Source: a virus
Taxonomy: Duplodnaviria > Heunggongvirae > Uroviricota > Caudoviricetes
DNA length: 64,000 bases
Direction: 5' to 3' (one strand)
IMG/VR virus record: IMGVR_UViG_3300048573_000051
Span: 15,996 to 79,995 of that record
Position 1 is the stretch's first letter; each line of letters opens with the position of its first letter. Shown in pieces: positions 15,201 to 64,000 of the stretch. The position numbers and the translations under genes were made by a program. The notes beneath the pieces are model-generated. The model saw nothing but the letters and a program-made list of their open reading frames with translations. It made no database searches and was not told where the DNA came from.

Positions 15201-16701
15201 TGAAGGTGGTAAATCAGGTAGTAAAAAACTTCGTGATGTCTTAGTTGCTGAGTTGAAGAAACCTGTCACTGTTATCGTAAATGCCCTTGTCAACGCTGCA
15301 CTAGGTGGTTCATCTGGTGGAGGTGGTTCAGGTTCTTCACTGGTTGGTAATTTCATCAGTAATGCAGCAAGTAAATCCTTGGGTAACATTACAATTGGTG
15401 GTAGTACACTAGCAGCAGCAGGAGAATCTTTTGCTACAGGTTTTATGACTACCGTTGGTGGTGGTTCTGTCGAAGCAGCCTCTGCCGCCTACAGTGCAGC
15501 AGGAATGCAAGGTGTAAGTACAGGTTTATCTGCAGGTGCTGCTGTAGCCAGTGCTATCCCTTATGTAGCTGGTGCTTTACTGGTGGCAAATGCTCTTGGT
15601 CTATTTAAAACTACAAAACAAGTTGGTAGTGGTATTGAAGGTACGTTAGGTTCGGGTGACATTAACAGTTACACTACAATGCGTAAATCTGGTAGTCTCT
15701 TCAGTGGACCAAAATACTGGAGAGAAAACCGTGGTGAGTTCTCTGGTTCTGATGCACTACAAGCTACTTTTGCTGATCTAAAGAATTCAACTAGTATGAT
15801 GGCAGAAGCCATTGGTAAATCTTCAGATGACATTGCAGGTTACACTAAGAAAATTGAAATTAGTTTTGATGGTTTAACTAACGAACAGATTCAAGATAAG
15901 ATTGCTACGACTTTTAAAGATGTAGGTAATGAACTTGCTGCATTGGTACTAGGTGCTGGTGCTACTGCTGAACAGTTGAGTTCTTTATACAATAACGTAA
16001 TGCAACAACGTTATGATCTAGAGGCTCAACTACTTGAGTTACAAGGTGATACTGTTGCACTCCGTGAAAGAGAACGCGCTAAAATCTATGATACCAATAA
16101 AGCGTTGTACGATCAGATCAATGCATTAAAAGACAAGCAAGAAGCTGATGCTGCTGCTGCTGAATCATTGCAGAAACTAACTGCTGCGACTACTACAATC
16201 GTTGATGAAATTAACCGTCTACGTGGTGTTAATACATCTAGTACTGCATTGGAATCTCAATTTGCTATTCTAACTGCACAAGCTCGGTCTGGTGACTTAA
16301 CTGCATTAGCTCAACTACCTGAAGTTACTAAAGGTCTTGAACAAATTGCAGCTTCTAGTGCAGTTAATGCAACTGATATTATCGTTGCCCGTGCAAGACT
16401 AGCGCAATCGTTGCAAGACACATTAGGTTATGTCGGTGCTAACGGTCTGTTAAGTTCTTCAGCTACAACCTCTGTTCCTACGGTATCTTCTGTATCAGCA
16501 ACTGGTGCGCCAACTTCTGTAAATTCATCCTCTAGTAATCAAGAGTTATTATCTGCGTTGGTAACTGAAGTTCAAGGTCTACGTGCTGAAGTTAGAGCCG
16601 ATGTTTCACACAACGCTAAAACAGCTAAGATTCTAGAACGTGCTAACCAAGATGGTGAAACACTTAGTGTATCAGCTACTATTGATGGAGGTGTCGTTTG
16701 A
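12271..16701 (+). CDS. tail tape measure protein
   Basis: 1476 aa, long alpha-helical/coiled-coil regions, Gly-rich putative membrane-interacting segment (residues about 1010-1100), canonical position after the chaperone pair. Confidence 0.85.
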   Translation: MDLAELKFVVLTDDLEKAATRIKELGTEVSKLNKPMQDLTKESAKSNKELSKAEEAAAKAALAQLKLEQAQTKSADSTGKSTSVLERQTMILGYMATGLSKGQASYMATAKAAGALDEELGQLETTLKTQRSLIGGDAFDKSIGLMQKLSNETKVTSEVNKLFNQSLGLTEKQMIELAREKERLIALYNHEKRSLDGLDAEYQQIINKSVELNRLNDARTNSMRQQVKAQNDATKANNYISSEMERLNRLTESNGTITSATNNKQIKFEQALKASGKTAKEQADLLKLFNEQMLSTQKAAGNRQVDYLSRALGPQITDIGVGLATGQAPLTILLQQGGQLRDQFALAGVAGADMGKMLVQASKAMVVSVKDIGLAVGQLVTGAITGTGKAIADSIIAPFTRMSEAKAALKQLDDGLISSLRYARLMEVANGRMIQSFISLSKVAGTVAVVGLVMLSKGLSDVIKEQDALATQLVLTGASLGVNTTAAISYANSLNSVGVTTASALKVIQAMAKEGGFLAGEINTIVVAANNLKFAGVAIEDTVKQFAKLKEKPVEALLEIARATGMVAPEITKLVYELTQQGKTSEAAAVAMKAYADVTIQQKDRLKSELSGFAVFIKSLSSNVGEFFDDVFRSLWRKASPTEAIKKEIADVENTIKMGTGASDTTKASNNAKLLALKEQLKLTQQASDADQTRLSDQARSAKAYEGFIKDSEQFASNEMKRKKELAEAETKYQGLVKSGQISQVQYEQLIANIQDKYKTPKTDSQKESDKLFKSYLTDLAKISNLTNGAIKEQENYTKAQKLALDIFASPAFKKYPEQQRIEIANAIERAHAEELIANELERQQKINEQVVKTRNELVEAGAKQLDASKQTTQALIDESALYDYKLTLVGKEEKEAEKLLALKKIQIEYEKEIARIKSLNLLSGTKEDLELEAYKQFILKRENLDKDANLKAALDFQKQFDNLKTGISDSIVTALFEGGKSGSKKLRDVLVAELKKPVTVIVNALVNAALGGSSGGGGSGSSLVGNFISNAASKSLGNITIGGSTLAAAGESFATGFMTTVGGGSVEAASAAYSAAGMQGVSTGLSAGAAVASAIPYVAGALLVANALGLFKTTKQVGSGIEGTLGSGDINSYTTMRKSGSLFSGPKYWRENRGEFSGSDALQATFADLKNSTSMMAEAIGKSSDDIAGYTKKIEISFDGLTNEQIQDKIATTFKDVGNELAALVLGAGATAEQLSSLYNNVMQQRYDLEAQLLELQGDTVALRERERAKIYDTNKALYDQINALKDKQEADAAAAESLQKLTAATTTIVDEINRLRGVNTSSTALESQFAILTAQARSGDLTALAQLPEVTKGLEQIAASSAVNATDIIVARARLAQSLQDTLGYVGANGLLSSSATTSVPTVSSVSATGAPTSVNSSSSNQELLSALVTEVQGLRAEVRADVSHNAKTAKILERANQDGETLSVSATIDGGVV

Positions 16702-34160: not shown

Positions 34161-34238
34161 TGGTGGACAGTGGCAGAGTCGAACTGCCGCCATGCTTGAG
34201 TTACAAACACCTGTTAGCCGTTTACACAGTAACTGCCC
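34161..34238 (-). tRNA. tRNA-like gene with a non-canonical anticodon arm (anticodon ambiguous)
   Basis: 78 nt with a CCA end; acceptor stem GGGCAGT/ACTGTCC (one G-U); D arm CTGT/ACAG; T arm GGCAG-TTCGACT-CTGCC; anticodon region GTGTTTGTAACTCAAGC folds only with a 5-nt loop or with G32/U37, both atypical. Confidence 0.5.
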
Positions 34239-34700
34239 ATGTTTGGTGTGAGCGACAGGTAACGCTCCTGCTTCCAACGACTTATGAGGTCGCTGCCTGA
34301 CTTCTCGGCTTCACTCACGGTTATAGTAAAATATACATAAATACACTTTACTATAAACTCTGGTCCCTAAACCAGTATTATAGTGTCTTTCGCTCCCGTA
34401 GAAGATTTCTCTCCTATTATTCGTTACACTATTGGACGACAATCCGCATGCTGGAAATCCTGCAGTACAGCGCAACTTGTACTTGCATTTTTAATGACGG
34501 GACTTACACCCGCCTCGCTGGAAGTTTGCCGCTAACTCTAGGGATTTGAGCAACAGGCATCAGCGGGACTATTTATGAATTTAAACTTACGAATCCTTTG
34601 ATTTCCGACTATCGCAGCTTAGATATATCTAGAATCATCTACGAGTAAGTACAAAGGCATCGAGGCTGGCAACCTTTCGGTTCATTCGTAAGTTTAAAAC

Positions 34701-34802
34701 TGGTGTAACTGGATGGATTCGAACCATCGGCTTGGTTTACCCTCTGGCATTTGGTCCTTCACCGTGAAGAGGTTCCTGCTCTACCAACTGAGCTACAGTT
34801 AC
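34701..34802 (-). tRNA. aberrant 102-nt tRNA-like gene with a 49-nt central region lacking a canonical anticodon arm
   Basis: Perfect acceptor stem GTAACTG/CAGTTAC with ACCA end; consensus D arm TAGCTCAGTTGGTAGAGC; T arm GATGG-TTCGAAT-CCATC. No 5-bp/7-nt anticodon stem-loop can be drawn between them; there is an internal hairpin CTTCA-cgg-TGAAG flanked by CCTCT/AGAGG. Confidence 0.45.
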
Positions 34803-34808
34803 ATTGTT

Positions 34809-34885
34809 TGGTGCGAGTGGAGGGATTCGAACCCACGACCAATGGTGTAGAAGACCAGTGCTCTATCCAACTGAGCTACACTCGC
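34809..34885 (-). tRNA. tRNA-Arg (anticodon UCU)
   Basis: 77 nt: GCGAGTG acceptor stem, GCTCAGTTGGATAGAGC D arm, anticodon loop CTTCTAC (U33, UCU, A37) resembling E. coli argU, T arm GTGGG-TTCGAAT-CCCTC, encoded CCA end. Confidence 0.8.
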
Positions 34886-35669: not shown

Positions 35670-37967
35670 TTAATGGCACTGACCCCAATTCATACCGGGA
35701 ATGTACTCAAAGCCTAAGTCTACACGAAGTTTCAACTCTTGGCAAGCTTTTTTGATACCTTCTTCGATGCATTCTACAGGTACAGTCTTCATACCAACAT
35801 ACGCACCCTTCGAACCGTGACCAATAGCACTACAACCGGGATTAGCTTGAACGAATTCTTTTGCTTCTTCTTCAGTTGCAAACGATTTAATCTGCAGCAA
35901 ACTAGGATGACAAGCCATCTGTTGTTCATCATGCATGTGAATCAACCACCAGACTTTAACATCTTTCTTGGTATCTTTGAAAGGATCGCCAAGGATTCCA
36001 CGCTCTTCCATAGCCTGAGCTAAACGAACAGCAGACCACTTAGCAGCAATAGCACCACCAGACTGGAATAGAACGTTAATAAGGCTGTGTTTACTACGAG
36101 TTGATAGCAACCTACCATCAAGGCCCGGAATGCTCTTCTTGCCGCTTGCTTCCCATCGTTGCTCTACACGTTCTTTTAATTCTTTAAGTGCAGGTACAGC
36201 GTCCCAATATTCGTTAAACAAGCGTTGACCTTCAGCTTCACTAATGCCAAGCATCTTAGATAGCTTTTTAGGTTGTGCACCATAAATCGCAGCATAGGAA
36301 AAGGACTTTGCAGAGCTACGGTCAATTCCAAGTTTACGTGCGTTAATACTGTGAATGTCATTAGGCTTTTCTGCAACCAACGCTGCAGCTAAGTTTACAC
36401 CGTCAGTATAAGGCAGCACATAGTGACCCATTACTCGTGCCTCCAGTGAAGCAAAGTCGTAACCCAACTGCCATAGTCCCTTTCCGCTACCAAACAGTGT
36501 ACGCATTTGTTCACCGTACAGCGAAGTTACGCGAGGTACGTTACACACAATCTTATGGCGATAGCGTCCAGTGTTAGCACCTAAAGTATCTGCAGGAGTA
36601 GGCACACGACCATCTTCACGTACAGCACTTAGAAAACCTGTCATTGGTTCACCATCTTCATCCAAAGCACCACCAGCAATAGAATTCTTTCGGTGACGAT
36701 ATGTGTAGTAATGCACAACATCTTTTACGAACTCTGCTTTTTGACCTAGTGAGATAAGGTTAGGACAGATTTCTTTTTCTACACCTACAGTAAGCTTAGG
36801 AGTAGTAGGCAGGTAAATAGGTTTTGTACCGTTGATTTTCTTAATCAAGAATGCACGTAAGTTTTCCATACGAACATCCAGCAATTCTAAACGCAAGTCA
36901 CGAAACACTGAAGTTTCAGTTTGCTTGACATAGCGGTCAATAGCTTCAATGATGCCATCGTAATCTCTTACGCTCTTATCGGTCTTCTTAACGATATCGC
37001 GCTCTTTAACTTCAGATGGAACCCAACCCAAGGAAATCAGATAGCCTTTGACAACATCGATATCTTCAATGTCTGCCTCCTCTTCATTCTTTAGAGGCTC
37101 GTCTGTAGTAATAGGAAATACCTTACCTTCAAAGGTAATTGTCTTTTGGTCTTCTGAGATAACTGCAGAAGTTTTCTCGCAGAACTTCAGAAGGTTAGCT
37201 GACACTTCGCCGTTCTTTTTAAAACGAATCTTTGGCAACTGATAGAAACTTGCATTGGCTTGTGTCATGCGCTTTTTAGGCAGCAGTGGGTCTACAGTCT
37301 TCGCAATGTCTTGCATCAATGTAGTTAGTTCTGCAATGTTCTTATGTGCAAGCTCTACGTTAAAATCAAAACCGAATAGTTCTTGACGTAAGGTAAGATC
37401 AGTCAGCTTAACTTCCATGCTGTAAGGTGTATTCCAATCGTGCTTACCTTGCTCTTTGATAAGCTCGCTTAGAACTGAAGCATTAACGCTTGTATCTTGA
37501 ATACAGTAGTCTAGCATTTCTTGTGAGAAACGGTCCCACTCTGCAAAGTGAATCTTGTTGTTGCCCAAACGCTTACCCCAAGCATCAAGGCTGTGACCAC
37601 CAAGACGATCAGCATTCAGTAGTTTAGACCACAAAAGTGTATCTGTAATTTGAACAGGTTTACCAAACAGTGTACTAGGTTGACCGGGATAGCCTACAGT
37701 GTAGTCCAAGGCATCATACAGCATCAGTACAGGTAAGTCGAAAGCTACAATGTTATGTCCAATCAGTTCGGTGCAATCACTCAAAATACGACTGAGATTC
37801 TTCTTTGTGATCTCTTCTTTGACTAGTGATACTACAGCTTTGGTGTCTAGGTTACGCACGACCACGCACCAGACTTTGTAGTCAGGCTTTAACTGAAAAG
37901 GCATAGAGGTGTAATCCAAACCGTTTTGCAGCAAGTTCGTAGATTCGATGTCGATGATGTAACGCAT
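35670..37967 (-). CDS. DNA polymerase, family A (Pol I-like) with N-terminal 3-prime to 5-prime exonuclease
   Basis: 765 aa; N-terminal MRYIIDIESTNL exo motif; palm motif A LGYDFASLEARVMGHY and motif C HMHDEQQM typical of family A polymerases. Confidence 0.85.
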   Translation of the reverse strand: MRYIIDIESTNLLQNGLDYTSMPFQLKPDYKVWCVVVRNLDTKAVVSLVKEEITKKNLSRILSDCTELIGHNIVAFDLPVLMLYDALDYTVGYPGQPSTLFGKPVQITDTLLWSKLLNADRLGGHSLDAWGKRLGNNKIHFAEWDRFSQEMLDYCIQDTSVNASVLSELIKEQGKHDWNTPYSMEVKLTDLTLRQELFGFDFNVELAHKNIAELTTLMQDIAKTVDPLLPKKRMTQANASFYQLPKIRFKKNGEVSANLLKFCEKTSAVISEDQKTITFEGKVFPITTDEPLKNEEEADIEDIDVVKGYLISLGWVPSEVKERDIVKKTDKSVRDYDGIIEAIDRYVKQTETSVFRDLRLELLDVRMENLRAFLIKKINGTKPIYLPTTPKLTVGVEKEICPNLISLGQKAEFVKDVVHYYTYRHRKNSIAGGALDEDGEPMTGFLSAVREDGRVPTPADTLGANTGRYRHKIVCNVPRVTSLYGEQMRTLFGSGKGLWQLGYDFASLEARVMGHYVLPYTDGVNLAAALVAEKPNDIHSINARKLGIDRSSAKSFSYAAIYGAQPKKLSKMLGISEAEGQRLFNEYWDAVPALKELKERVEQRWEASGKKSIPGLDGRLLSTRSKHSLINVLFQSGGAIAAKWSAVRLAQAMEERGILGDPFKDTKKDVKVWWLIHMHDEQQMACHPSLLQIKSFATEEEAKEFVQANPGCSAIGHGSKGAYVGMKTVPVECIEEGIKKACQELKLRVDLGFEYIPGMNWGQCH

Positions 37968-38026: not shown

Positions 38027-39745
38027 TCAATGATTGTTTAACCAGTCATCCAAGCTATGCAGTGTATGAGTGGCATTGTCGTAGTAGATAGAACCAGCAG
38101 GTCCAGTCAAACCGCATACACGATTCTTAGTTACGCTGATTTCAGTACTGTTACGTGTGATCTCACTTTCAGCCATCTTATCACGTTTTAGCAAGATATT
38201 AGCAGAAGCAGATTTGATAATCGTACTAGAACCCATGATGTTCTGTTCGCTATCAGCACCGTTTTGACCTGCAGGTGTCTTACGCATGTGGTTAATAAAG
38301 ATGAAAGTAATGCCGTGACTCTTAATAAAGCCTTTAGCCCACTTCATAAATTCCGCTTGCTCTTCGTTAGATAGACCATCCAAAATATCTTGCAGTGGGT
38401 CCAGTACGATTACTTTCGCACCACAAGCAGAAACTAACTCTTCAACAGTGTCTTGAATTTCTTCAATTGAACCATCGCGGTTATCTAGCAGATAGAAACG
38501 AGAATCACCATCTTCTTTAATGGTAAGTTCTTTTGCTTTTTCTACTACACGGTCTGTACTCAAGTAAGCCATCTTCTCGTCTTGGCTTTCGATTAGTGCA
38601 AGCTTCTTTTCAAGGTGTCGTGACAATAGCACTTCACCATATTGACCTGCATCTAATTCCATTGACACAATACCTACAGTGTGTGGAGAGTTAAAAATCC
38701 AGTAGTAAATCAATTCGTTTACCAGTGTAGTTTTACCAATGCCTGTATCTGCAGCAATGTTTACAATGTGACCTAGTGGCATACCACCAACGAACAACTC
38801 GTTAAGCTTTTGCATGAAAGGTGGAAACGGAATCTTGGCAACCGCAGTTTGACCCATGATTCGGTCATACAGTTTACTAGAAGCTAATACACCTACAGGA
38901 ACTTGCTTTTTAGCATCATAAAAATCATGAATGAACTCCTTTGCTTTGTCTTTTTCAAGATATTCGTTTGCGTCTTTATAACGCATTGGCATAATCTTGA
39001 CCTTACCTTTTGGTAGTACTTTAAGTAGTTGCTCTGTAGCAGTTTGACCAGCCTTATCATTGTCATATGAAATAACAATATTCTCAAACGAATCAAAGAA
39101 CCTGAATTGTCCTGCAATTTGTTTGTGCGAGTTAGCACCTGTAGTTGGAGACACTACAGCAGTTTCAAATACACCGCCTTTGGCTTCAGCATACTCAGAC
39201 AGCATTTGATATGCAGATAGTGCGTCAATTTCACCTTCGGTAATGATCACATATTTACCACCACGGTTAAATCGAAACTGCATGAACAACTCGCAGTCAG
39301 CCCCTGTTCGACCTTTGGAATAGAAATTCTTAGGTACTTCACGGACCTTGTAGCCTACCAATTGACCTTCTTGTGTGCAAGGGTAGTACTGCTCAATAAC
39401 TTCGCCTGTATCCTCTGCAAAAGCATGTCGTACACCAAACTTAGTGTAAACAGCATCATCAATACCACGAAAGCCTTTAGCCTTAACAGAAGTTTCAGAT
39501 TTAATCTCTGAATTCTCTTCTGGTGTAAGTGCAGGTTTTGTACTTGGTTTAACTTCCATGTTCTCTACTTCCTTTTTAACGCTAGAGCGAACTCTAGATG
39601 GTTTCTTTTGATTTGCTTCTTTGAACTCTTCAGATGGTATTGTATGCTCACAAACAAAACAGTGACTTGATTCGTCTTGATACACTGCTCTACCATCTGA
39701 ACTGCCGCATTTATCACAACTTGTATGCCTGATAAAATTCGCCAT
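38027..39745 (-). CDS. primase-helicase (zinc finger + TOPRIM + DnaB/gp4-like helicase)
   Basis: N-terminal CDKCGSSDG...CFVCEH zinc ribbon; TOPRIM-like ITEGEIDALS; Walker A GMPLGHIVNIAADTGIGKTT and helicase motifs. Confidence 0.85.
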   Translation of the reverse strand: MANFIRHTSCDKCGSSDGRAVYQDESSHCFVCEHTIPSEEFKEANQKKPSRVRSSVKKEVENMEVKPSTKPALTPEENSEIKSETSVKAKGFRGIDDAVYTKFGVRHAFAEDTGEVIEQYYPCTQEGQLVGYKVREVPKNFYSKGRTGADCELFMQFRFNRGGKYVIITEGEIDALSAYQMLSEYAEAKGGVFETAVVSPTTGANSHKQIAGQFRFFDSFENIVISYDNDKAGQTATEQLLKVLPKGKVKIMPMRYKDANEYLEKDKAKEFIHDFYDAKKQVPVGVLASSKLYDRIMGQTAVAKIPFPPFMQKLNELFVGGMPLGHIVNIAADTGIGKTTLVNELIYYWIFNSPHTVGIVSMELDAGQYGEVLLSRHLEKKLALIESQDEKMAYLSTDRVVEKAKELTIKEDGDSRFYLLDNRDGSIEEIQDTVEELVSACGAKVIVLDPLQDILDGLSNEEQAEFMKWAKGFIKSHGITFIFINHMRKTPAGQNGADSEQNIMGSSTIIKSASANILLKRDKMAESEITRNSTEISVTKNRVCGLTGPAGSIYYDNATHTLHSLDDWLNNH

Positions 39746-39753
39746 TTTACTCC

Positions 39754-40785
39754 TTATTCGTTTTTAAGTAACCATTTGTTGTTAATTGCCTTAAAGCTGC
39801 AATCATGCACAGTGTTACTCTTAAACACCAAACCTTCACGTTCACTGCCATTTAACAAAGACTTACCTTCAGCATGTTCTAATAGAATCTGAATAGTACA
39901 GTCTTTAATATTGGCAGTTTCTCTGATGATAGGCACATGCTTTAACCCAAGCTTTTCACACGCCGCTTTAAGCTGTACAGGTAAGATATATTGTCCTGTG
40001 TGGGTATTGTACATGTCGTAAACGTAGAAGTCAAGCTGTACTTTGTACTGATTTCCTTGGATACCTTCACCGATCATTTCACCTTGAATTGCCATACCCT
40101 TCATAAAATTACGGCGCATGATATCTTCAATATTAAACTTACGTGCTACTTTCCAGAATGAATTTGCTTCGTCTTCTTTCAAGTCTAAGTTACGTGAGCA
40201 TACATGGAATACACCTTCATCATCAAGATAGAATGTGGAAGAGGAGCCATCAAGCTTTTCCGTGATTGACCAAGTATCTTTTTGGTACTCTTCAAACTGT
40301 CGTGTCAAGTTTTGAATACGCTCTTGATCAGTCTTTGGTACTAGCGCAGGGAAATTACCTCGTGCCATACCAGCAAGTTGAGCGTTCATGGGGCGTTCCC
40401 ATTTGATAATACCAAGAATATCACTTACATCTGATCCTTCGAATTCATCAGGAGTTAGCCAATCTTCTTTTTGTACTTTCGTTAGTACATTTAATGGTAG
40501 CAACAAACCTTGTGAAATTTGACCACGTAGTTTTACTGTACGTAGGCGCTCACCCTTTACACCTTCAAATTCACGAGGCTCTTTACCTTTAGATAGGAAT
40601 GGTGCAATATCGTGACCTACCCACGAGTCAATTTCGATATACACGGCAAGTGAATCAACTGCAAATTCACCCTTCTTTACTACAACTTTCCAACCATCGA
40701 CTACAGCGACTTCAATAGCATCTGCACCTTCGATGGGTTCAATTGCTGCAATCTTACGAATAGTTGCTAATTTACGTTCTGTCAT
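39754..40785 (-). CDS. RNA ligase-like nucleotidyltransferase (Rnl5-like: N-terminal OB-type domain plus central KxDG motif)
   Basis: Motif I ITEKLDGSS in mid-protein; N-terminal MTERKLATIRKIAAIEPIEGADAIEVA resembles the N-terminal domain of the DraRnl-type RNA ligase family. Confidence 0.45.
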   Translation of the reverse strand: MTERKLATIRKIAAIEPIEGADAIEVAVVDGWKVVVKKGEFAVDSLAVYIEIDSWVGHDIAPFLSKGKEPREFEGVKGERLRTVKLRGQISQGLLLPLNVLTKVQKEDWLTPDEFEGSDVSDILGIIKWERPMNAQLAGMARGNFPALVPKTDQERIQNLTRQFEEYQKDTWSITEKLDGSSSTFYLDDEGVFHVCSRNLDLKEDEANSFWKVARKFNIEDIMRRNFMKGMAIQGEMIGEGIQGNQYKVQLDFYVYDMYNTHTGQYILPVQLKAACEKLGLKHVPIIRETANIKDCTIQILLEHAEGKSLLNGSEREGLVFKSNTVHDCSFKAINNKWLLKNE

Positions 40786-46361: not shown

Positions 46362-46540
46362 ATATCCTTTATGTTGTAACTTAAGTTAATAACTTCAGTA
46401 TATAACTGAAGGAAGATTCTGAAGTTGAGTTCCTTGTCGAGTTCCCTGCCGTACCCTCCGTCCCTCGTCCCGTTTTGGATTGTAGCTTAACTTCAATTCT
46501 TGTCAAGTACTTTGTGTAAAATTTATTTGTGCAAAAAGTA

Positions 46541-46568
46541 GTTGCAAAGCTAAATTGTTGTGCTATGA
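46541..46568 (+). promoter_or_regulatory. early promoter TTGCAA-16-TGcTATGAT
   Basis: -35 TTGCAA at 46541, extended -10 TGCTATGAT ending at 46568; followed by the conserved GGCTTCAAC leader motif. Confidence 0.5.
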
Positions 46569-46603
46569 TCATGGCTTCAACTTAACAACCGAAAGGAACT
46601 TAC

Positions 46604-48912: not shown

Positions 48913-49139
48913 ACGAACGAATTAAAGAACTTGCAAACAAAGCAGGATGTGACTATCTTTATGATTACTCAGAAGACGGTCATGCTGTGGTCTGTAACTT
49001 GAGTGATATTGAAAAGTTCGCCAAGTCGATTATTCAGGAATGTTTGAAAATTATTGAACCCACAGAAGATAGTGGTGATGAGTGGTGCGTAACCCTTAAA
49101 GGGGCTGCTGAAGAGATTAAAGAACATTTTGGAGTATAA
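48897..49139 (+). CDS. hypothetical protein, paralogue of 54850..55059
   Basis: Begins MNERIKELANKAG and ends EEIKEHFGV; the paralogue begins MNERIEELMFEAG and ends EILEHFGV. Confidence 0.35.
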   Translation: MGDKMNERIKELANKAGCDYLYDYSEDGHAVVCNLSDIEKFAKSIIQECLKIIEPTEDSGDEWCVTLKGAAEEIKEHFGV

Positions 49140-49566
49140 AATGAACAAACAAAAACCTACGCTACTCCTAATCAGAGGCGTACCGGGCAGCGGTAAATCA
49201 ACGTTTGCAAACCTACTTAATCAATATGCACTGACTATGATTAACTTGGAAGCTGATGATTTCTTTACAAAGTACAATGCTGAGACTAACTCCTTTGATT
49301 ATGAGTTTGATCCAACAAAACTAAAAGATGCACATCAGTGGTGTCAATCTACTGCTTTGCATTTTCTAGAGCAAGGGTTTAACGTTTCGGTGTCCAACAC
49401 TAGCGTTACAGAGTGGGAAGTTGCTACGTATATGGATATTGCAAATCTTGCTGGTGCTAATTTTGTAAGTCTTATCGTAGAGAATTATCACGGTAACAAA
49501 AACATTCACGGTTGTCCTGACGAAAAGGTACAGCAGATGAAACGTAAATTTCACACGCAACTCTAA
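49129..49566 (+). CDS. P-loop polynucleotide 5-prime-kinase-like protein (Pnk kinase domain only)
   Basis: Walker A LLLIRGVPGSGKSTFANLL closely resembles the T4 Pnk N-terminus GCPGSGKSTWAREF; 145 aa. Confidence 0.5.
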   Translation: MEYKMNKQKPTLLLIRGVPGSGKSTFANLLNQYALTMINLEADDFFTKYNAETNSFDYEFDPTKLKDAHQWCQSTALHFLEQGFNVSVSNTSVTEWEVATYMDIANLAGANFVSLIVENYHGNKNIHGCPDEKVQQMKRKFHTQL

Positions 49567-49574
49567 AGGAATAT

Positions 49575-50465
49575 ATGCTGTTAACATACGATCAACAAAT
49601 GAACTTGGTTAATCGTGGTCTAGCTACCATGAAAAATGATGGGAAATACACTACGTTCAAATACCATCGTAGAGCCATGTATGATTATCTCTGGTATGAA
49701 GTACCTGAATTGTTGGAATCGCGTGGACACGTATACCACAATAGCACAAAAGAACTAGTACAAGCTGCTCCACGTAAAAGCTTCAATTATCTTGAACGTG
49801 GCTACTGGAGTGAAGTACCACTAGATACTCCAGTTGAAATGTACAAGAAAATCAATGGTTTTATGGCTTGTGCTACACTACACAATGGTGAATTGATTGT
49901 ATCTACTACAGGTACAACCACAAGTGAATACGCTCAGTGGGCTAAAGATTTAATCGTTCGTGATATGAAACTTTGGGATATTATGCTTGATGATAAAACT
50001 ACAGTTCTATTTGAAGTTGTAGTACCACAAGACCCACACATTGTACAAGAGCGTCAAGGTTTGCACTTACTTGGTGTACGTGAGAAGGATACAGGAGATT
50101 TTTACCCTTTAGGTTTTAATACTCGTTGTTCTTTAGAGCAAGCATTGGAAATCGCAAAGTGCGCCCGTGGTGAAGGTTTTATGGTATATCCTTTAATTGC
50201 TGATGCAGGTAATCCATTTGGATACCACAATTACAATCACTGCTGTAAACTAAAGACTCCATACTACGTTGGCAAGAAAAAGTTGATGCGTATGACAGCA
50301 AAGAACGTTGAATTGATGTACAATAATCTTCCGCACACGATCAGTACGTTACCTGAGATGTGGCATGAGGTTCCTGAACAGATTGTACAGAGCGTTCATA
50401 AAGACACATGGTTAGCTATGAACGATCAACAACGCAGGGTAATTCTTGAAGATTTTAAAGGATAA
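49575..50465 (+). CDS. putative RNA ligase (Rnl2-like nucleotidyltransferase)
   Basis: Candidate motif I KINGF resembling the Rnl2 KIHG; 296 aa; located between the kinase and phosphoesterase genes. Confidence 0.35.
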   Translation: MLLTYDQQMNLVNRGLATMKNDGKYTTFKYHRRAMYDYLWYEVPELLESRGHVYHNSTKELVQAAPRKSFNYLERGYWSEVPLDTPVEMYKKINGFMACATLHNGELIVSTTGTTTSEYAQWAKDLIVRDMKLWDIMLDDKTTVLFEVVVPQDPHIVQERQGLHLLGVREKDTGDFYPLGFNTRCSLEQALEIAKCARGEGFMVYPLIADAGNPFGYHNYNHCCKLKTPYYVGKKKLMRMTAKNVELMYNNLPHTISTLPEMWHEVPEQIVQSVHKDTWLAMNDQQRRVILEDFKG

Positions 50466-50470
50466 TAATT

Positions 50471-50656
50471 ATGCAAGGTCACAATTTTAACCGTACATTA
50501 CATGCCAAAGGTCTGTTTGTGTATAATAACTGTGGCCTTATTCGTTTGAATAATCGTGCTACTGAAAAGCAGGTCAATAAGCCTTGCGTTGGACTACGAG
50601 AGCTAGAAGACGAAGAGTGTTTGAAACTCAAAGGACAAATGAAAGGTAAACGATGA
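50471..50656 (+). CDS. hypothetical protein
   Basis: 61-aa ORF; an unlisted 53-codon ORF follows at 50653..50814. Confidence 0.25.
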   Translation: MQGHNFNRTLHAKGLFVYNNCGLIRLNNRATEKQVNKPCVGLRELEDEECLKLKGQMKGKR

Positions 50657-50813
50657 AAGAAATTAAACTACCAATTGAAGTTCAGCTTGTGGTTCGAAGT
50701 AAAGACCTACCAGATACATGTGAACTGTTATTACATCTTCAAGATATTGTAGATGAATGGTACCGGAGTAAAGTTCCTACAATTCCTTGTGCATTTATTA
50801 GAAAGAACAGATA

Positions 50814-51386
50814 ATGAAAATATTCACAAGTGATTTGCACTTTGGACATAAACGAATTGTAGAATTTACAAACCGTGCTGTTGATTGCACCTCACAAGAA
50901 AATCACACAGAGTGGTTAATCGATGTTTGGAACACAGAGGTATCTGCAGGTGATATTGTGTATCATCTAGGGGATTTCTCATTCTTTAAAAAGTACAGTG
51001 AAGTAGCTGATGTTGTTTCACAGCTTAAGGGTTCTAAGATTTTCATCAAGGGTAATCACGATAAACGAGAGCATCTAGATGAACTGGTAGAAGACCAACT
51101 AATCGCAGCATGGTATGACTACAAAGAGATTAAACTAGGTGATACTCCTGTAGTACTATTTCACTATCCTATCGCGTCTTGGCATCGTCAGGGTCATGGT
51201 GCATATCATCTGCACGGTCACTGTCATGGAAACTTTAAAGATAGTAAAGGTAAAATGCTTGACGTAGGTATTGATTCAGTGTATAATCTGTATGGTAAGC
51301 ATGGGTTTTTAAACGAACAACAGATTAGTGAATTCATGAAAGAAAAAGAAATCTACATTGCAGATCATCACAAGGAGTATAAATGA
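50814..51386 (+). CDS. calcineurin-like metallophosphoesterase (candidate 3-prime-phosphatase / 2-prime,3-prime-cyclic phosphoesterase)
   Basis: DLHFGH ... HLGDF ... GNHD ... metal-binding motifs of the metallophosphatase superfamily; 190 aa. Confidence 0.6.
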   Translation: MKIFTSDLHFGHKRIVEFTNRAVDCTSQENHTEWLIDVWNTEVSAGDIVYHLGDFSFFKKYSEVADVVSQLKGSKIFIKGNHDKREHLDELVEDQLIAAWYDYKEIKLGDTPVVLFHYPIASWHRQGHGAYHLHGHCHGNFKDSKGKMLDVGIDSVYNLYGKHGFLNEQQISEFMKEKEIYIADHHKEYK

Positions 51387-61745: not shown

Positions 61746-61994
61746 ATGAAAACTAACCACACATTTACTACACAAACCGTAACTAAAGAGCTTCCTGCAC
61801 TTCAAATCACATTGTCTGTTGAAGATGCACAAGCACTACGGGCATTAGGAGCTACATCACAATATGATCGTTGTGAGATGCTGGCTGCTAGTGATCCAAC
61901 TAATCACTATGAACATCATGATTTGTGTGCCCGGTTGCTTGGTAATCTTTTTCTTGCAGCAGATTATTTCTTGCAAGAACAAGGTTTACGTTAA
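61746..61994 (+). CDS. hypothetical protein
   Basis: 82-aa ORF with a TAAGGAGAAT RBS; last gene before a strong terminator. Confidence 0.35.
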   Translation: MKTNHTFTTQTVTKELPALQITLSVEDAQALRALGATSQYDRCEMLAASDPTNHYEHHDLCARLLGNLFLAADYFLQEQGLR

Positions 61995-62004
61995 AAATCC
62001 ATGT

Positions 62005-62047
62005 ACCCATTACGGTTTCAAAAAGCCGTGATGGGTTATTTTTATTT
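62005..62047 (+). terminator. strong rho-independent terminator ending the + strand early/middle region
   Basis: ACCCATTACGG ... CCGTGATGGGT 11-bp stem followed by TATTTTTATTT. Confidence 0.65.
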
Positions 62048-62143
62048 GAAAAAGCCGTTTGCCTAAATTTTTTGAAAAGCCGCTTACCTATTTGCGAAAT
62101 GAAGACGGCTAAATGTAATAAGGGTGGCGAATATCCGTCAATC

Positions 62144-62215
62144 CTTATATAAGCATATAAGCATATAAGCATATAAGCATATAAGCATATAAGCATATAA
62201 GCATATAAGCATATA
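62144..62215. repeat. 9 tandem copies of the octamer GCATATAA (AT-rich unwinding-element-like)
   Basis: Exact 8-bp periodicity over 72 bp. Confidence 0.9.
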
Positions 62216-62283
62216 AGCATATTCAACTATCACGCAAACCTTACAAGAATCTTACAGTGTAGCGTAAAAACAACACGGCAAAG

Positions 62284-62412
62284 TTATCCACAGGTTATCA
62301 ACAGGTTATACATTATCCACAGGTGGGCAAGTATCATGCCTGAGTTATCCACAGGTTATCAGTCTTATATAAGAGTCAAATTGTGGATAAGTAGCACTAC
62401 TGGTGTGGATAA
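62284..62412. promoter_or_regulatory. cluster of six consensus DnaA boxes (4x TTATCCACA forward, 2x TGTGGATAA reverse) plus degenerate boxes
   Basis: TTATCCACA at 62284, 62313, 62345; TTATCAACA at 62295; TGTGGATAA at 62382 and 62404; the 12-mer GTTATCCACAGG occurs 3 times. Confidence 0.7.
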
Positions 62413-62935
62413 CTATTTTGCATGGGGTAGTAGCTTGGACGATGAAAACGGCTCAAAACGCGTTTAAACGCTTGGCATGATTTTTGATTGGCATGAATTT
62501 TGCTACGTGTGCGCGTGCGCGTTATTTATAAGATAGTAAAATGAACACTAAATTCTACTTAGGGTTTATCCTATAAAAATAATTTGAGCATGGCACAAAA
62601 ACCGGGTTTTATGTCATACAATAGAGCCATGCCAAGCAATAACGCAAGGCAACAAACGAAAGCCCGAAAATGTTTAAACTTGAAAATGTAATCGCAGTTG
62701 TTCTTTTTGCACCACTTACCGCCTATACGGTTGTTCTTTTTTGCGTGCAGTTTAAGATCATCTAAGGAAATCAACGTGAAAAACGATGCAATTCTGATCA
62801 CAATCAACGTCATTCTTTGGGTCATAATCTGCCCACTTGTCGCCCATTTGTTCTAAATTGTCAGTCTATAAGCCCGTTAAATGTCGGGCTTATAGGCGGG
62901 TAATTTCACCCGGTCTTCCACAATGGATTTTTATC

Positions 62936-63172
62936 ATGCAAAATACCCTATTCACCTCGACTAAATTTGTCACACTGCAACAACTGGAGAACAACCCGCC
63001 GAAAGTGGGCCAGTGGGTTTTGATCGATGGCGCTACCCGTGGGCAATATCTGGGCAGAACCCGTGCAGGGGTTGTTGTGATGCGCTATCAAAATGGGAAA
63101 TTCGGTAGCAAAGCCGATACTGAATCTAATCATTATCTGAGGCAGTTTGCCAAAGTTAACGGCGCAAAATAA
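62936..63172 (+). CDS. hypothetical protein (about 50% GC, compositionally distinct)
   Basis: Start chosen at the ATG at 62936 (MQNTLFTSTK...), inside track ORF 62837..63172; codon usage differs from the phage body. Confidence 0.35.
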   Translation: MQNTLFTSTKFVTLQQLENNPPKVGQWVLIDGATRGQYLGRTRAGVVVMRYQNGKFGSKADTESNHYLRQFAKVNGAK

Positions 63173-63199
63173 ATTAACGATTAACCCGAGATTATCATT

Positions 63200-63412
63200 A
63201 TGTCAAAATTTAAATCAAACCCTCGAATCATCGTCACAGTGTCAGATAATGGCGTTTCTTGTAAGGGCGTTTATATTGACTCGAAAGAAAGCACATATTC
63301 ATTTAATCGGACATTTACTGAAGAAAATCAAGCGTTAGATTATCTCAATAATATGCGAGAGAATAACGCTGAATTTTCGATTCAAGTAAACCGCATTAAC
63401 TGGAAGGCATAA
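63200..63412 (+). CDS. hypothetical protein
   Basis: 70-aa ORF. Confidence 0.3.
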   Translation: MSKFKSNPRIIVTVSDNGVSCKGVYIDSKESTYSFNRTFTEENQALDYLNNMRENNAEFSIQVNRINWKA

Positions 63413-63416
63413 CATC

Positions 63417-63770
63417 ATGTCGGCATTCATTTTGTCAGATAAGCATTTTTCAGTAATCGCGTATTATATCGGGAATCTGACCGATATTGACCCGCAAATT
63501 ATCGCCGATAAATTGAAAGCAATTAACATTGAATCCGTGAATTATCGGTATAAAGAAAAGACACCGAAAAGAAAATGCAAGTTAATGCACACGGGTGATA
63601 ATTACTCTACCGCTGACATTATCCGGCTAATACGATGCTGGTCATATCAAAGTTGTGAGAATGGATTATCTCTTGATTATCAAACGATGGATGTTTTCTT
63701 ATTGTCGTTTTTTGAAACGGACGATATTCTAGATTCCCGCTTGCACTCTGACAAATGGTCCATTGATTAA
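63417..63770 (+). CDS. hypothetical protein
   Basis: 117-aa ORF. Confidence 0.3.
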   Translation: MSAFILSDKHFSVIAYYIGNLTDIDPQIIADKLKAINIESVNYRYKEKTPKRKCKLMHTGDNYSTADIIRLIRCWSYQSCENGLSLDYQTMDVFLLSFFETDDILDSRLHSDKWSID

Positions 63771-64000
63771 GTAGTGTTCAAATAAGCTAACGCTTATATA
63801 AGCTTGCACTTATATAATACGCACGTTCAAATAAGCTAACGCTTATATAAGCTTGCACTTATATAATACGCACGTTCAAATAAGCTAACGCTTATATAAG
63901 CTTGCACTTATATAATACGCACGTTCAAATAAGCTAACGCTTATATAAGCTTGCACTTATATAATACGCACGTTCAAATAAGCTAACGCTTATATAAGCT
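63771..64000. repeat. 49-bp tandem direct repeats (at least 4.7 copies, truncated by the window end), each containing two short palindromes
   Basis: Unit CACGTTCAAATAAGCTAACGCTTATATAAGCTTGCACTTATATAATACG with palindromes ATAAGC-taac-GCTTAT and ATAAG-cttgc-ACTTAT; period 49. Confidence 0.9.

What the first reader, a model, noticed from the sequence alone, without database searches (positions are those of the whole stretch)
62000..62560. Non-coding locus combining tandem AT-rich octamers, a dense DnaA-box array and GAAAAAGCCG repeats
A strong terminator at 62005..62047 is followed by three spaced copies of GAAAAAGCCG, then 9 exact tandem copies of GCATATAA (62144..62215), then six consensus DnaA boxes within 130 bp (62284..62412; four TTATCCACA and two inverted TGTGGATAA, with the 12-mer GTTATCCACAGG three times). 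A GC-rich palindromic segment (GCGTTTAAACGC, GTGCGCGTGCGCG) follows. An AT-rich unwinding element next to a DnaA-box array is the hallmark of DnaA-dependent origins such as oriC and plasmid oriV/oriR. In a virulent phage this could be a replication origin that recruits host DnaA, a DnaA-titrating sink, or an injection-stop/first-step-transfer-type repeat region as described for T5-like phages. None of this is coding. It is the most distinctive unexplained structure in the window.
Basis: partly seen in the sequence, partly recalled or inferred. Interest (0 to 1): 0.75.

Follow-up and report, generated by a model that had tools for sequence, protein, structure and literature searches.

The report
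DnaA-box, sigma-54 phage control module
A 0.7-kb non-coding stretch of a lytic freshwater phage carries a conserved, fixed-geometry set of host DnaA binding sites interleaved with two outward-facing sigma-54-type promoters and phage-specific tandem repeats, most likely a host-dependent replication-origin or control region of a kind not yet described.

Summary
There are five exact TTATCCACA boxes plus one near-consensus box, not six. The octamer array has 9.5 exact copies at 62147-62222. GAAAAAGCCG is exact only once.

The window is a virulent siphovirus related to Limnohabitans phage DC31. The DnaA-box core recurs with fixed spacing in 47 distinct viral-contig variants from two unrelated phage groups. 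It is found in only one of 185,579 bacterial genomes, on what looks like a mis-binned phage contig.

In boxes 1-4, every change among nine relatives falls on the degenerate position of TTATNCACA. That pattern argues for selection on DnaA binding.

- **P_left** (62340-62325, minus strand) lies between boxes 2 and 3, with box 2 over its predicted start site.
- **P_right** (62489-62504) precedes the GC-rich tract.

Each fires into a low-stability zone.

The octamer array sits where relatives carry unrelated 16-20-bp repeats of ordinary base composition. It therefore behaves like iterons, not a conserved AT-rich unwinding element. Two relatives lack the whole DnaA cassette, so it is accessory.

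Best reading (about 0.4): a transcription-activated, DnaA-assisted origin serving a T7-like replisome. Main rival (about 0.3): a purely transcriptional host-state switch. GC skew gives no support for an origin here.

The parts
62005..62046 (+). Intrinsic terminator that closes the upstream block of small early genes (14-bp stem plus T-run)
   Evidence: -20.8 kcal/mol, z = -5.3. It is weaker on the minus strand (-13.1 kcal/mol). The same element is present in DC31 and other relatives.
62016..62090 (+). Three direct repeats of about 27 bp containing AAAAAGCCG (or a variant). The first forms the terminator loop. Role unknown.
   Evidence: families D7, D11. Relatives keep 3-4 repeats at this position with a different core: CCCAAAAACCTAC in DC31 and AAAAACCC in L006/L008.
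62147..62222 (.). 9.5 perfect tandem copies of ATATAAGC. This iteron-like array is a half-site of the CTTATATAAG palindrome and forms the left low-stability zone (62130-62229).
   Evidence: Relatives carry 16-, 18- or 20-bp tandem repeats at this position.
62284..62292 (+). DnaA box 1, TTATCCACA
62295..62303 (+). Near-consensus DnaA box 1b, TTATCAACA, 2 bp after box 1
62313..62321 (+). DnaA box 2, TTATCCACA. It covers about -6 to +3 of P_left, the predicted start site.
   Evidence: In 10 Group-2 variants this position holds a LexA-like CTGTA-N6-TACAG instead.
62325..62340 (-). P_left, a sigma-54-type -24/-12 element. It reads AGGCATGATACTTGCC on the minus strand and CTGGCATGATACTTGCT in most relatives. 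It fires leftward into boxes 2 and 1 and the octamer array. Predicted start is near 62315.
   Evidence: GG-N10-GC is in a fixed register in 37 of 44 variants, with a variable spacer.
62345..62353 (+). DnaA box 3, TTATCCACA, at about -29 to -37 of P_left
62362..62375 (.). Palindrome GTCTTATATAAGAG (core CTTATATAAG) on which the direct and inverted boxes converge. It is unchanged in 8 of the 9 aligned sequences, with a single-base change in L003.
   Evidence: It is also present in L007 and L009.
62382..62390 (-). DnaA box 4, inverted (TGTGGATAA on the + strand)
   Evidence: It is often TGTGGACAA in Group 2.
62404..62412 (-). DnaA box 5, inverted, 22 bp after box 4
62473..62488 (+). Degenerate copy of the -24/-12 motif (TGGCATGATTTTTGAT, with GA in place of GC). 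Its GGCATG is invariant in relatives.
62489..62504 (+). P_right, a sigma-54-type -24/-12 element (TGGCATGAATTTTGCT). It fires rightward. Predicted start is near 62515.
   Evidence: It is present in 10 of 11 Group-1 variants (the 11th is truncated), in the cassette-less L006/L008, and in L013 at 51% protein identity.
62505..62522 (.). GC-rich tract of alternating purine and pyrimidine (ACGTGTGCGCGTGCGCGT). It acts as a GC clamp at the P_right start and is not a stable hairpin.
   Evidence: z = +1.3
62523..62590 (.). Right low-stability AT-rich zone just downstream of P_right and the GC clamp
   Evidence: 98th-99th percentile of 40-bp windows. TTATTTAT is conserved.
62617..62639 (+). Sigma-70-like -10 element (TACAAT, 62617-62622) and the conserved leader AGCCATGCCAAGCAA, for the downstream small genes
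   Evidence: Read directly. The consensus scanner did not call it.
62670..62856 (+). Two tiny hydrophobic ORFs (31 aa at 62670-62765, 26 aa at 62776-62856) that mark the end of the non-coding locus
   Evidence: A homologue of the second ORF is visible in DC31.

Best explanation
The locus is a conserved cis-acting module. It places host DnaA and host sigma-54 RNA polymerase next to phage-specific tandem repeats. I think it is most likely the phage's replication origin or replication-control region, of the transcription-activated type.

**Proposed working (all steps inferred)**
1. The upstream terminator insulates the module from early transcription.
2. Two divergent -24/-12 promoters fire outward. 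P_left runs through boxes 2 and 1 into the octamer/iteron array. P_right runs across a GC clamp into an AT-rich tract. These two targets are the two least stable duplex zones of the locus.
3. Transcription, R-loop formation and the negative supercoiling left behind two diverging polymerases open the DNA.
4. DnaA binds a helically phased array. The boxes start at -61, -32, 0, +37 and +59 relative to box 3, and three direct boxes converge with two inverted boxes on an invariant AT-rich palindrome. DnaA helps melting. Because box 2 covers the P_left start site and box 3 abuts its -24 element, DnaA also gates that promoter according to the host's DnaA state.
5. The T7-like primase-helicase and PolA then load on the opened DNA. 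No phage initiator or helicase loader was found.

**Shown directly**
- The sequence elements, their conservation and their geometry.
- The substitution pattern within the boxes.
- The distribution of the cassette across two phage groups.

**Inferred**
- Binding by DnaA and sigma-54.
- The direction and start of transcription.
- Any role in replication.

The DnaA cassette is an accessory add-on to a backbone of iterons, P_right and the GC clamp, because some relatives lack it.
For: **DnaA boxes are specific to the locus**
- 5 of the 6 exact boxes in 64 kb lie within 129 bp.
- In the complete 76-kb DC31 genome, all 5 exact boxes and both strict sigma-54 matches occur only at this locus.

**Selection for DnaA binding**
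- In boxes 1-4 of 9 relatives, all 8 substitutions fall at position 5, the N of TTATNCACA.
- Box spacing is fixed in 47 variants.

**Conservation of the cassette**
- Columns 62284-62522 are 0.80-0.99 conserved, against 0.50-0.54 in the flanks.

**Sigma-54 elements**
- P_left keeps GG-N10-GC in register in 37 of 44 variants. Information is high at GGC and TTGC and low across the spacer.
- The strict pattern GGCAY-N5-TTGCW occurs 49 times inside the cassette zone and 3 times in about 1 Mb of flanking phage DNA.
- P_right is present in every complete Group-1 locus, including a relative at 51% protein identity.

**Promoters aimed at non-coding DNA**
- P_left always points into iterons, never directly into a gene. 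Group 1 has no minus-strand genes for 15 kb. In Group 2 there are about 800 bp of CAGTCACAA iterons before the putative small-terminase gene.
- Two low-stability zones flank the cassette.

**Iteron-like repeats**
- The tandem repeats differ between lineages, as iterons do.

**Replisome**
- It is T7-like: gp4-type primase-helicase, PolA, exonuclease, endonuclease VII and ligase. No recognisable initiator or loader was found. From established knowledge, T7 and T4 origins are promoters followed by an unwinding element.

**Not host DNA**
- The core is found in 1 of 185,579 genomes, on a phage-like contig.
Against: - There is no direct evidence of replication initiation.
- Cumulative GC skew does not turn at the locus. 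Its minimum is at 47.1 kb in the window and 35.1 kb in DC31, the divergent early-promoter region. A classical reading would place an origin there, although skew here follows the coding strand.
- The DnaA cassette is absent from L006 and L008 and decayed in L007.
- No protein that binds the iterons or the palindrome was identified. Neighbouring proteins do not co-vary with iteron type and show no DNA-binding domains.
- No enhancer-binding protein (GAFTGA motif) is encoded in the window or in DC31 1-40 kb, so what activates the sigma-54 promoters is unknown.
- Operator-like sites over a start site are equally typical of an ordinary regulated promoter.
- The low-stability zones are only in the top 1-3% of windows, which is not extreme.
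Confidence: 0.4

Rival explanations
1. The locus is a purely transcriptional host-state switch with no role in replication. Sigma-54 promoters are silent until activated, and they are further gated by DnaA (or by LexA in some relatives). P_right together with the sigma-70 promoter would control the downstream block of small genes. P_left would make a non-coding or antisense RNA in Group 1, or the leader of the terminase-portal operon in Group 2. The tandem repeats would be sites for a phage regulator.
For: - The promoter motifs are the best-conserved parts.
- Host-factor sites lie exactly over the P_left start site: box 2, or a LexA-like CTGTA-N6-TACAG in 10 variants.
- In Group 2, P_left points toward the 123-aa gene, TerL and portal.
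- P_right is followed by a sigma-70-like promoter and genes.
- GC skew gives no origin signal here.
Against: - Group 1 has no gene for P_left to express, yet P_left is conserved in 10 of 11 variants.
- In Group 2, about 800 bp of repeats separate P_left from the first gene.
- Five to nine phased DnaA boxes converging on a palindrome is more than simple repression needs.
- Lineage-specific perfect tandem arrays and a GC clamp beside an AT tract are origin-like features.
Confidence: 0.3
2. The locus is a DnaA sink or modulator, similar to datA or DARS. As the phage genome multiplies, the box array titrates DnaA or changes its nucleotide state, blocking or re-timing host chromosome initiation.
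For: - A high-affinity consensus box cluster, unique in the genome, that would be amplified with phage copy number.
- The cassette is dispensable in some relatives, as expected of an accessory host-takeover device.
Against: - It does not explain the embedded sigma-54 promoters, the palindrome, the fixed geometry or the iterons.
- The box arrangement was not matched to datA or DARS. That comparison rests on memory only.
- A virulent phage that encodes its own nucleotide-metabolism enzymes gains little from fine control of host initiation.
Confidence: 0.08
3. The locus is a T5-type injection-stop or terminal-repeat boundary. The repeat-rich DnaA-box region would hold the entering DNA, for example on membrane-bound DnaA, after a first block of early genes has entered.
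For: [quoted passage not shown]
- In the window, about 15 kb of small early genes and a terminator precede the locus.
- Paired boxes occur here too: TTATCCACA-GG-TTATCAACA.
Against: - There is no sequence homology to T5.
- The T5 geometry, pairs 3 bp apart flanking a 52-bp spacer, is not met.
- The early block has no ORF over 303 aa, so there is no full-length A1-like gene.
- The left edge of the early block, at 46.4-46.6 kb, is a divergent promoter region next to the replication genes and does not look like a genome end.
- In Group 2 the cassette sits between the terminase genes and the early genes instead.
- The DnaA role in T5 is itself only a hypothesis from a preprint.
Confidence: 0.07
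4. The locus is a packaging recognition site (pac or cos) or the region of the physical genome ends.
For: - In Group 2 the cassette lies about 0.9 kb upstream of a 123-aa gene followed by TerL and portal, where cos or pac sites and genome ends often sit.
- Tandem repeats are common near phage ends.
- Several contigs break near the locus.
Against: - In Group 1 the locus is about 8 kb from the putative TerL, with genes and tRNAs in between.
- Contig break points are not consistent and coincide with tandem repeats.
- DnaA boxes and sigma-54 promoters have no known role in packaging.
Confidence: 0.05

Closest known systems
Phage T5 injection-stop / Repeat Region 3 of the left terminal repeat (Davison, bioRxiv 10.1101/866236)
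   Same: - A virulent siphovirus.
- A long untranslated, repeat-rich region downstream of early genes.
- It contains several consensus and near-consensus DnaA boxes (often adjacent pairs), palindromes and arrays of direct repeats.
- It is conserved across relatives more strongly than the neighbouring ORFs.
   Different: - No sequence homology.
- T5 boxes all point one way, in pairs 3 bp apart around a 52-bp spacer. Here three direct boxes and two inverted boxes converge on a palindrome.
- T5 has no conserved sigma-54 motif. The look-alike TGGCTAGGATTTTGTC is not conserved in T5-like phages.
- No terminal repeat or A1/A2 genes have been shown here.
- The function of the T5 boxes is itself untested.
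Transcription-primed phage origins: T7 primary origin (promoters phi1.1A/B plus an AT-rich region) and T4 oriF/oriG (middle promoter plus a downstream unwinding element)
   Same: - Promoter(s) followed by an easily melted segment.
- No dedicated initiator protein.
- The same kind of replisome: gp4-type primase-helicase and PolA.
   Different: - The promoters here are of the host sigma-54 type, not phage-RNAP or MotA-dependent promoters.
- They are divergent and interleaved with DnaA boxes.
- Iteron arrays are present.
- Primer or R-loop formation has not been shown.
Lambda ori with DnaA-modulated transcriptional activation from pR
   Same: - A phage origin whose firing depends on nearby transcription.
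- Host DnaA acts through boxes near the promoter rather than as the unwinding initiator.
   Different: - Lambda has its own initiator (O) and loader (P), and the origin lies inside the O gene.
- Its promoter is sigma-70.
- It has far fewer and weaker DnaA boxes.
Iteron-type origins of plasmids and plasmid-prophages (P1 oriR, RK2 oriV, F oriS)
   Same: - Tandem iterons.
- A cluster of accessory DnaA boxes.
- An AT-rich segment beside a GC-rich segment.
- DnaA boxes that are dispensable in some settings.
   Different: - No Rep gene next to the iterons, and none recognisable in the genome.
- The iterons are perfect, head-to-tail and 8-20 bp long, not about 20-bp units with 22-bp phasing.
- The phage is virulent.
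- No match in 72,556 plasmids.
Bacterial oriC
   Same: - A cluster of consensus DnaA boxes in two opposed sub-arrays with helical phasing.
- Flanking promoters, as with gidA and mioC in E. coli.
- A low-stability segment nearby.
   Different: - The sub-arrays converge rather than diverge relative to the E. coli layout.
- No unwinding element or DnaA-trio abuts the outermost box. About 60 bp separate box 1 from the octamer array on the left, and about 110 bp separate box 5 from the AT-rich tract on the right.
- No GC-skew switch.
- Essentially absent from bacterial genomes.

Membership tests
DnaA-dependent origin (oriC type) | Cluster of DnaA boxes matching TTATNCACA, more than chance, under selection | tested here: met
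   - 5 exact boxes and 1 near-consensus box in 129 bp, against 0.54 exact per 64 kb expected.
- All 8 substitutions in boxes 1-4 fall at the N position.
- Spacing is fixed in 47 variants.
DnaA-dependent origin (oriC type) | DNA-unwinding element directly adjoining the box array, conserved as AT-rich | tested here: inconclusive
   - Two low-stability zones exist, at 62130-62229 and 62520-62589.
- The left zone starts about 60 bp from box 1, and relatives replace it with repeats of average AT content.
- The right zone starts about 110 bp from box 5.
DnaA-dependent origin (oriC type) | Cumulative GC-skew switch at the origin | tested here: not met
   The extremes are at 22.7 and 47.1 kb in the window and at 35.1 and about 56 kb in DC31. 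Neither genome has one at the locus. Skew here follows gene orientation, so this test is weak.
DnaA-dependent origin (oriC type) | Initiation of replication at the site and DnaA binding in vitro or in vivo | not testable with these tools
   This needs marker-frequency analysis, 2D gels, and EMSA or ChIP.
Iteron-type origin (P1 oriR / RK2 oriV kind) | Array of direct repeats with lineage-specific sequence | tested here: met
   - 9.5 copies of an 8-mer in the window.
- 16-, 18- and 20-bp arrays at the same position in relatives. DC31 and L020 carry two types.
Iteron-type origin (P1 oriR / RK2 oriV kind) | Cognate Rep/initiator gene, usually adjacent | tested here: not met
   - No Rep, O-like or wHTH family was found among the neighbouring or replication-cluster proteins.
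- p140 and p78 do not co-vary with iteron type.
- Many small ORFs remain uncharacterised.
Sigma-54 (RpoN) dependent promoter | TGGCAC-N5-TTGCW with invariant GG and GC exactly 10 nt apart | tested here: met
   - P_right is TGGCATGAATTTTGCT in the window and CTGGCACGGATTTTGCT in relatives.
- P_left is CTGGCATGATACTTGCT in relatives and AGGCATGATACTTGCC in the window.
- The elements are conserved while the spacer varies.
- 49 matches in the cassette zone against 3 elsewhere in about 1 Mb.
Sigma-54 (RpoN) dependent promoter | Enhancer-binding AAA+ activator with upstream binding sites | tested here: inconclusive
   - No GAFTGA-type protein is encoded in the window or in DC31 1-40 kb.
- Conserved sequence lies where an enhancer would be (boxes 3-5, the palindrome, AAGGGGTAG), but no known activator site was recognised.
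- A host activator cannot be excluded.
Sigma-54 (RpoN) dependent promoter | Transcription start about 12 nt downstream of GC, dependent on rpoN | not testable with these tools
   This needs 5'-end RNA mapping and an rpoN mutant host.
T5-type injection-stop signal | Location inside a long terminal direct repeat at the end of the first-step-transfer DNA | not testable with these tools
   No read or terminus data are available. DC31 is reported as circular after assembly.
T5-type injection-stop signal | DnaA boxes in pairs 3 bp apart, flanking a 52-bp spacer inside inverted repeats IRD'/IRC' | tested here: not met
   The geometry differs and there is no homology.
T5-type injection-stop signal | Pre-early genes A1 and A2 upstream | tested here: inconclusive
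   The 47-62 kb block has no ORF over 303 aa, so a full-length A1 (556 aa, figure from memory) is unlikely. No direct homology search was run.
Transcription-primed phage origin (T7 / T4 oriF-G kind) | Promoter followed by an unwinding element, and a replisome that can load without an initiator | tested here: met
   - Both -24/-12 elements face low-stability zones.
- A gp4-type primase-helicase and PolA are present.
- This is sequence-level evidence only.
Transcription-primed phage origin (T7 / T4 oriF-G kind) | Persistent R-loop or primer RNA used for leading-strand synthesis | not testable with these tools
   This needs RNA-DNA hybrid mapping in infected cells.

The most novel reading that the evidence does not exclude
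The cassette is a DnaA-gated sigma-54 switch in which DnaA stands in for the missing enhancer-binding protein. DnaA oligomers assemble on the phased boxes that abut and overlap P_left and melt the adjacent DNA. This lets a poised sigma-54 holoenzyme, already distorted at its -12 fork junction, start without a canonical activator. The resulting RNA primes the T7-like replisome. On this reading, two unrelated groups of lytic freshwater phages couple the start of their own replication to the host's DnaA-ATP state, or to its SOS state in the relatives that carry a LexA-like box at the same position. That would be activator-independent physiological use of sigma-54 and a new class of phage origin.
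Probability: 0.1. Interest if true: 0.9.

Novelty: new variant of a known kind. Interest (0 to 1): 0.65.

Why it matters
**For phage biology**
- Origins and early control regions of environmental lytic phages are almost unknown.
- This is a sharply defined module of about 240 bp, shared by two unrelated groups of abundant freshwater phages.
- Its sequence points to three host inputs: DnaA, sigma-54 RNA polymerase and, in some relatives, LexA.
- I found no paper describing sigma-54 promoters in phage genomes, or a sigma-54 promoter bracketed by DnaA boxes.

**If it is an origin**
- It would show how a phage with a T7-like replisome but no RNA polymerase or initiator of its own starts replication.

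**If it is a switch**
- It would show a lytic phage reading the host's replication or nutritional state.

**Testability**
- DC31 and its Limnohabitans host are in culture.
- Natural variants without the cassette exist for comparison.

**Relevance to T5**
- It gives an independent second case for the unexplained DnaA boxes of T5-like phages.

Tried and rejected
- **Known RNA family.** Rfam at E <= 1 over 61900-64000 gave only noise from the repeats, and at gathering thresholds over the whole window it found only tRNAs.
- **Plasmid origin or host fragment.** No match among 72,556 plasmids. One hit in 185,579 genomes, on a 7.5-kb metagenome-assembled contig that also encodes the phage p140 protein.
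- **T5 homology through a sigma-54-like motif.** T5's spacer has TGGCTAGGATTTTGTC, 13 of 16 identical to P_right, but neither the GG nor the motif is conserved in four other T5-like phages. Rejected as chance.
- **Other sigma-54 sites as general phage promoters.** The only other near-matches in the window are inside genes or lack GG. DC31 has none outside the locus.
- **Phage-encoded enhancer-binding protein.** No GAFTGA motif.
- **Iteron or palindrome binder among the neighbours.** Pfam, PHROGs and PDB sequence searches of p140, p82, p78, p70 and p117 were uninformative. p140 and p78 stay 80-89% identical across phages with different iteron types.
- **GC tract as a terminator.** It is not a stable hairpin.
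- **GCGTTTAAACGC as a functional palindrome.** It is not conserved.
- **Alternative origin at the divergent early-promoter region, 46362-46603.** It has promoters but no boxes or iterons. It is, however, where the cumulative GC skew is at its minimum.
- **Genome termini from contig ends.** The break points are inconsistent.
- **NtrC site between boxes 4 and 5.** The half-site spacing is wrong (by eye).
Full report
**What the window is.** The 64-kb window is most of a virulent siphovirus-type genome.
- Structural genes lie on the + strand at 1-22 kb (major head protein 6194-7207, tape measure 12271-16701).
- A replication and nucleotide-metabolism cluster lies on the minus strand at 22-47 kb. 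It includes PolA at 35670-37967, a T7 gp4-type primase-helicase at 38027-39745, an exonuclease, endonuclease VII, DNA and RNA ligases, and ribonucleotide reductase.
- A long block of small + strand genes follows from 46.6 kb.
- The only GenBank relative is Limnohabitans phage DC31, 76,209 bp, with about 78% nucleotide identity in patches. It is a lytic long-tailed phage of a 59% GC betaproteobacterium.
- The DC31 paper does not mention DnaA or an origin.

**Checking the observation.**

Confirmed:
- The terminator is real: 62005-62036 plus a T-run, -20.8 kcal/mol, z = -5.3.
- The octamer array is 9.5 perfect copies of ATATAAGC at 62147-62222.
- Exact TTATCCACA occurs six times in 64 kb against 0.54 expected. 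Five copies lie in 62284-62412: three direct (62284, 62313, 62345) and two inverted (62382, 62404).

Corrections:
- The 12-mer GTTATCCACAGG occurs twice, not three times.
- GAAAAAGCCG is exact only once.
- Coding resumes at 62670 with two tiny hydrophobic ORFs, so the non-coding locus is 61995-62669.

**Conservation.**
- DC31 has the same layout in a 930-bp gap: terminator, three short repeats of different sequence, tandem repeats, the box array at 88.7% identity, then a GC-rich tract.
- Seventeen IMG/VR loci found through the upstream 140-aa protein mostly carry it as well.
- In a 9-sequence alignment, columns 62284-62522 are 0.80-0.99 conserved against 0.50-0.54 in the flanks.
- All 8 substitutions in boxes 1-4 fall at position 5, the degenerate N of TTATNCACA. 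That is the signature expected if DnaA binding is what selection preserves.
- A degenerate pattern covering box 3 and the palindrome finds 47 viral stretches. Box starts are fixed at -61/-62, -32, 0, +37/38 and +59/60.
- It finds only one hit in 185,579 bacterial genomes, on a small contig that also encodes the phage p140 protein.
- In the whole DC31 genome the five exact boxes occur nowhere else.

*P_right.* Just right of the boxes lies TGGCATGAATTTTGCT (62489-62504).
- In relatives it reads CTGGCACGGATTTTGCT, a full match to the sigma-54 consensus YTGGCACGrNNNTTGCW (consensus from my own knowledge).
- GG and GC are invariant while the spacer varies.

*P_left.* A second element lies on the minus strand between boxes 2 and 3 (62340-62325).
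- It reads AGGCATGATACTTGCC here and CTGGCATGATACTTGCT in most relatives.
- This region was not part of the search pattern.
- Across 44 unique variants, information content is 1.2-1.6 bits at GGC and TTGC and about 0-0.8 bits across the seven positions between.
- GG-N10-GC is kept in register in 37 of 44, in both phage groups.

*Specificity and geometry.*
- The strict pattern occurs 49 times in the cassette zones and 3 times in about 1 Mb of flanking DNA.
- Box 2 lies at about -6 to +3 of P_left, and box 3 at about -29 to -37.
- In ten Group-2 variants, box 2 is replaced by CTGTA-N6-TACAG with a variable centre, which is a LexA-box pattern.
- P_left therefore looks like a real promoter whose start site is covered by a host repressor site.

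**Two phage groups and natural variants.**

*Group 1* (the window, DC31 and genomes of about 75-80 kb):
- The cassette lies between co-oriented small genes.
- P_right, the GC tract and a downstream sigma-70-like promoter are universal.

*Group 2* (contigs of about 34-41 kb):
- The cassette lies in a divergent non-coding region of about 1.2 kb.
- On one side is a leftward 123-aa gene followed by TerL and portal. On the other are rightward small genes.
- CAGTCACAA repeats sit to the left, and an ordinary sigma-70 promoter to the right.

*Natural variants:*
- In both groups P_left fires into repeats, not directly into a gene.
- L006 and L008 lack the whole DnaA cassette and P_left. Their 20-bp repeats join directly to P_right and the GC tract.
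- L007 has decayed boxes.
- L009 has nine tandem 11-bp boxes plus a separate box-box-palindrome-box core.
- The DnaA cassette is therefore an accessory module on a backbone of repeats, P_right and the GC clamp.

**The octamers.**
- Relatives carry 16-bp TTATATAAGC-type, 20-bp CAGTCAGAAACTAAACGGTT-type or 18-bp repeats at this position. Some arrays are perfect, and some phages have two types.
- The 20-mer is 60% AT, the genome average.
- The conserved property is therefore a lineage-specific tandem array, which is iteron-like.
- The window's unit is a half-site of the CTTATATAAG palindrome that sits at the centre of the box array.
- That palindrome also fills a 49-bp tandem array at 63776-64000.

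**Physical properties.**
- Nearest-neighbour stability shows two weak zones flanking the cassette: 62130-62229, and 62520-62589 just after the GC clamp. Each is downstream of one promoter.
- The GC tract alternates purine and pyrimidine and does not form a stable hairpin.

**Interpretation.**

For an origin:
- The replisome is T7-like, and I found no initiator, loader or enhancer-binding protein.
- From established knowledge, T7 and T4 origins are promoters followed by an unwinding element.
- I therefore favour a transcription-activated origin or replication-control region in which DnaA assists opening and gates P_left (confidence about 0.4).

Against an origin:
- Cumulative GC skew has no turn here. 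Its minimum is at the divergent early promoters, 47.1 kb in the window and 35.1 kb in DC31, although skew follows the coding strand.
- The cassette is dispensable in some relatives.
- No trans-acting binder was found.

Rivals:
- The main rival, at about 0.3, is a purely transcriptional host-state switch.
- A DnaA sink, a T5-type injection stop and a packaging site are less likely, for the reasons given under each.

**Comparison and novelty.**
- The T5 injection-stop region is the nearest described case of DnaA boxes in a lytic phage's untranslated repeats. Its geometry differs and there is no homology.
- Literature searches found no description of this cassette, or of sigma-54 promoters in phage genomes. 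The library is limited to open-access papers and preprints.
- I rate it a new variant of a known kind: a host-factor-dependent phage origin or control region with an unusual sigma-54 component.

Noticed in passing
window 63776-64000 (runs off the window end): At least 4.6 perfect copies of a 49-bp tandem repeat. Each unit holds CTTATATAAG and CTTATATAAT, the same palindrome that sits at the centre of the DnaA-box array. DC31 has a comparable cluster of TTATATAAG sites in a repeat-rich 820-bp gap about 3 kb downstream of its cassette (L001 8960-9030). The small-gene block is therefore bracketed by arrays of this motif.
   Followed up: partly
L027, L037, L040, L042, L045, L047, L049, L061, L068 (40 nt left of box 3); T5 L023 531-550: About ten Group-2 cassette variants carry CTGTA-N6-TACAG, a LexA-box pattern with a variable centre, exactly where box 2 sits in the window, over the P_left start. 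T5's 'palindrome D' (TACTGTATAAATATACAGTA) directly abuts T5's DnaA boxes and matches the E. coli LexA consensus. The Davison preprint contains no mention of LexA or SOS.
   Followed up: partly
window 34161-34885, minus strand: A tRNA cluster inside the replication gene block: Arg-TCT, an unusually long 102-nt Arg-ACG, and Val-AAC. Between Arg-ACG and Val there is an ORF-free spacer of about 460 nt (34239-34700) with no Rfam match. It could be an intron or an uncharacterised RNA.
   Followed up: partly
window 49129-51386, + strand: Adjacent genes for a polynucleotide-kinase-like ATPase (49129-49566), a T4 Rnl1-like RNA ligase (49575-50465) and a phosphoesterase (50814-51386). A second RNA ligase lies at 39754-40785. 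Together these look like a T4-style tRNA repair set against host anticodon nucleases.
   Followed up: no
L006 4570-5055 and L007 4571-5050: An extra ORF of about 160 aa sits between the p140 gene and the locus in two relatives. In L006 it shows an HNH-like motif (HVDHIVPL...N) by eye. It is probably a homing endonuclease, so this junction tolerates insertions.
   Followed up: no
window 62670-62765 and 62776-62856, + strand: Two very small hydrophobic ORFs (31 and 26 aa) are the first coding sequences after the locus. The second has a homologue in DC31. They could be membrane peptides expressed from P_right or the sigma-70 promoter.
   Followed up: no
window 62092-62119: TTGCGAAATGAAGACGGCTAAATGTAAT is conserved in position and partly in sequence in relatives (DC31 has TTGCAAAAATAAAACGCTTAAATGCAAT). 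It may be a weak rightward sigma-70 promoter facing the iterons or another binding site. The scanner did not call it.
   Followed up: no
L009 4634-4730: One relative at 74% protein identity has nine head-to-tail 11-bp DnaA boxes (GTTATCCACAG and variants), one per helical turn, in addition to the box-palindrome-box core 0.5 kb further on.
   Followed up: partly
window 46362-46603; DC31 about 35.1-35.4 kb: The cumulative GC-skew minimum of both genomes lies at the divergent early-promoter region between the replication cluster and the small-gene block. That region has sigma-70-like promoters and a C-rich 7-bp repeat but no DnaA boxes.
   Followed up: partly
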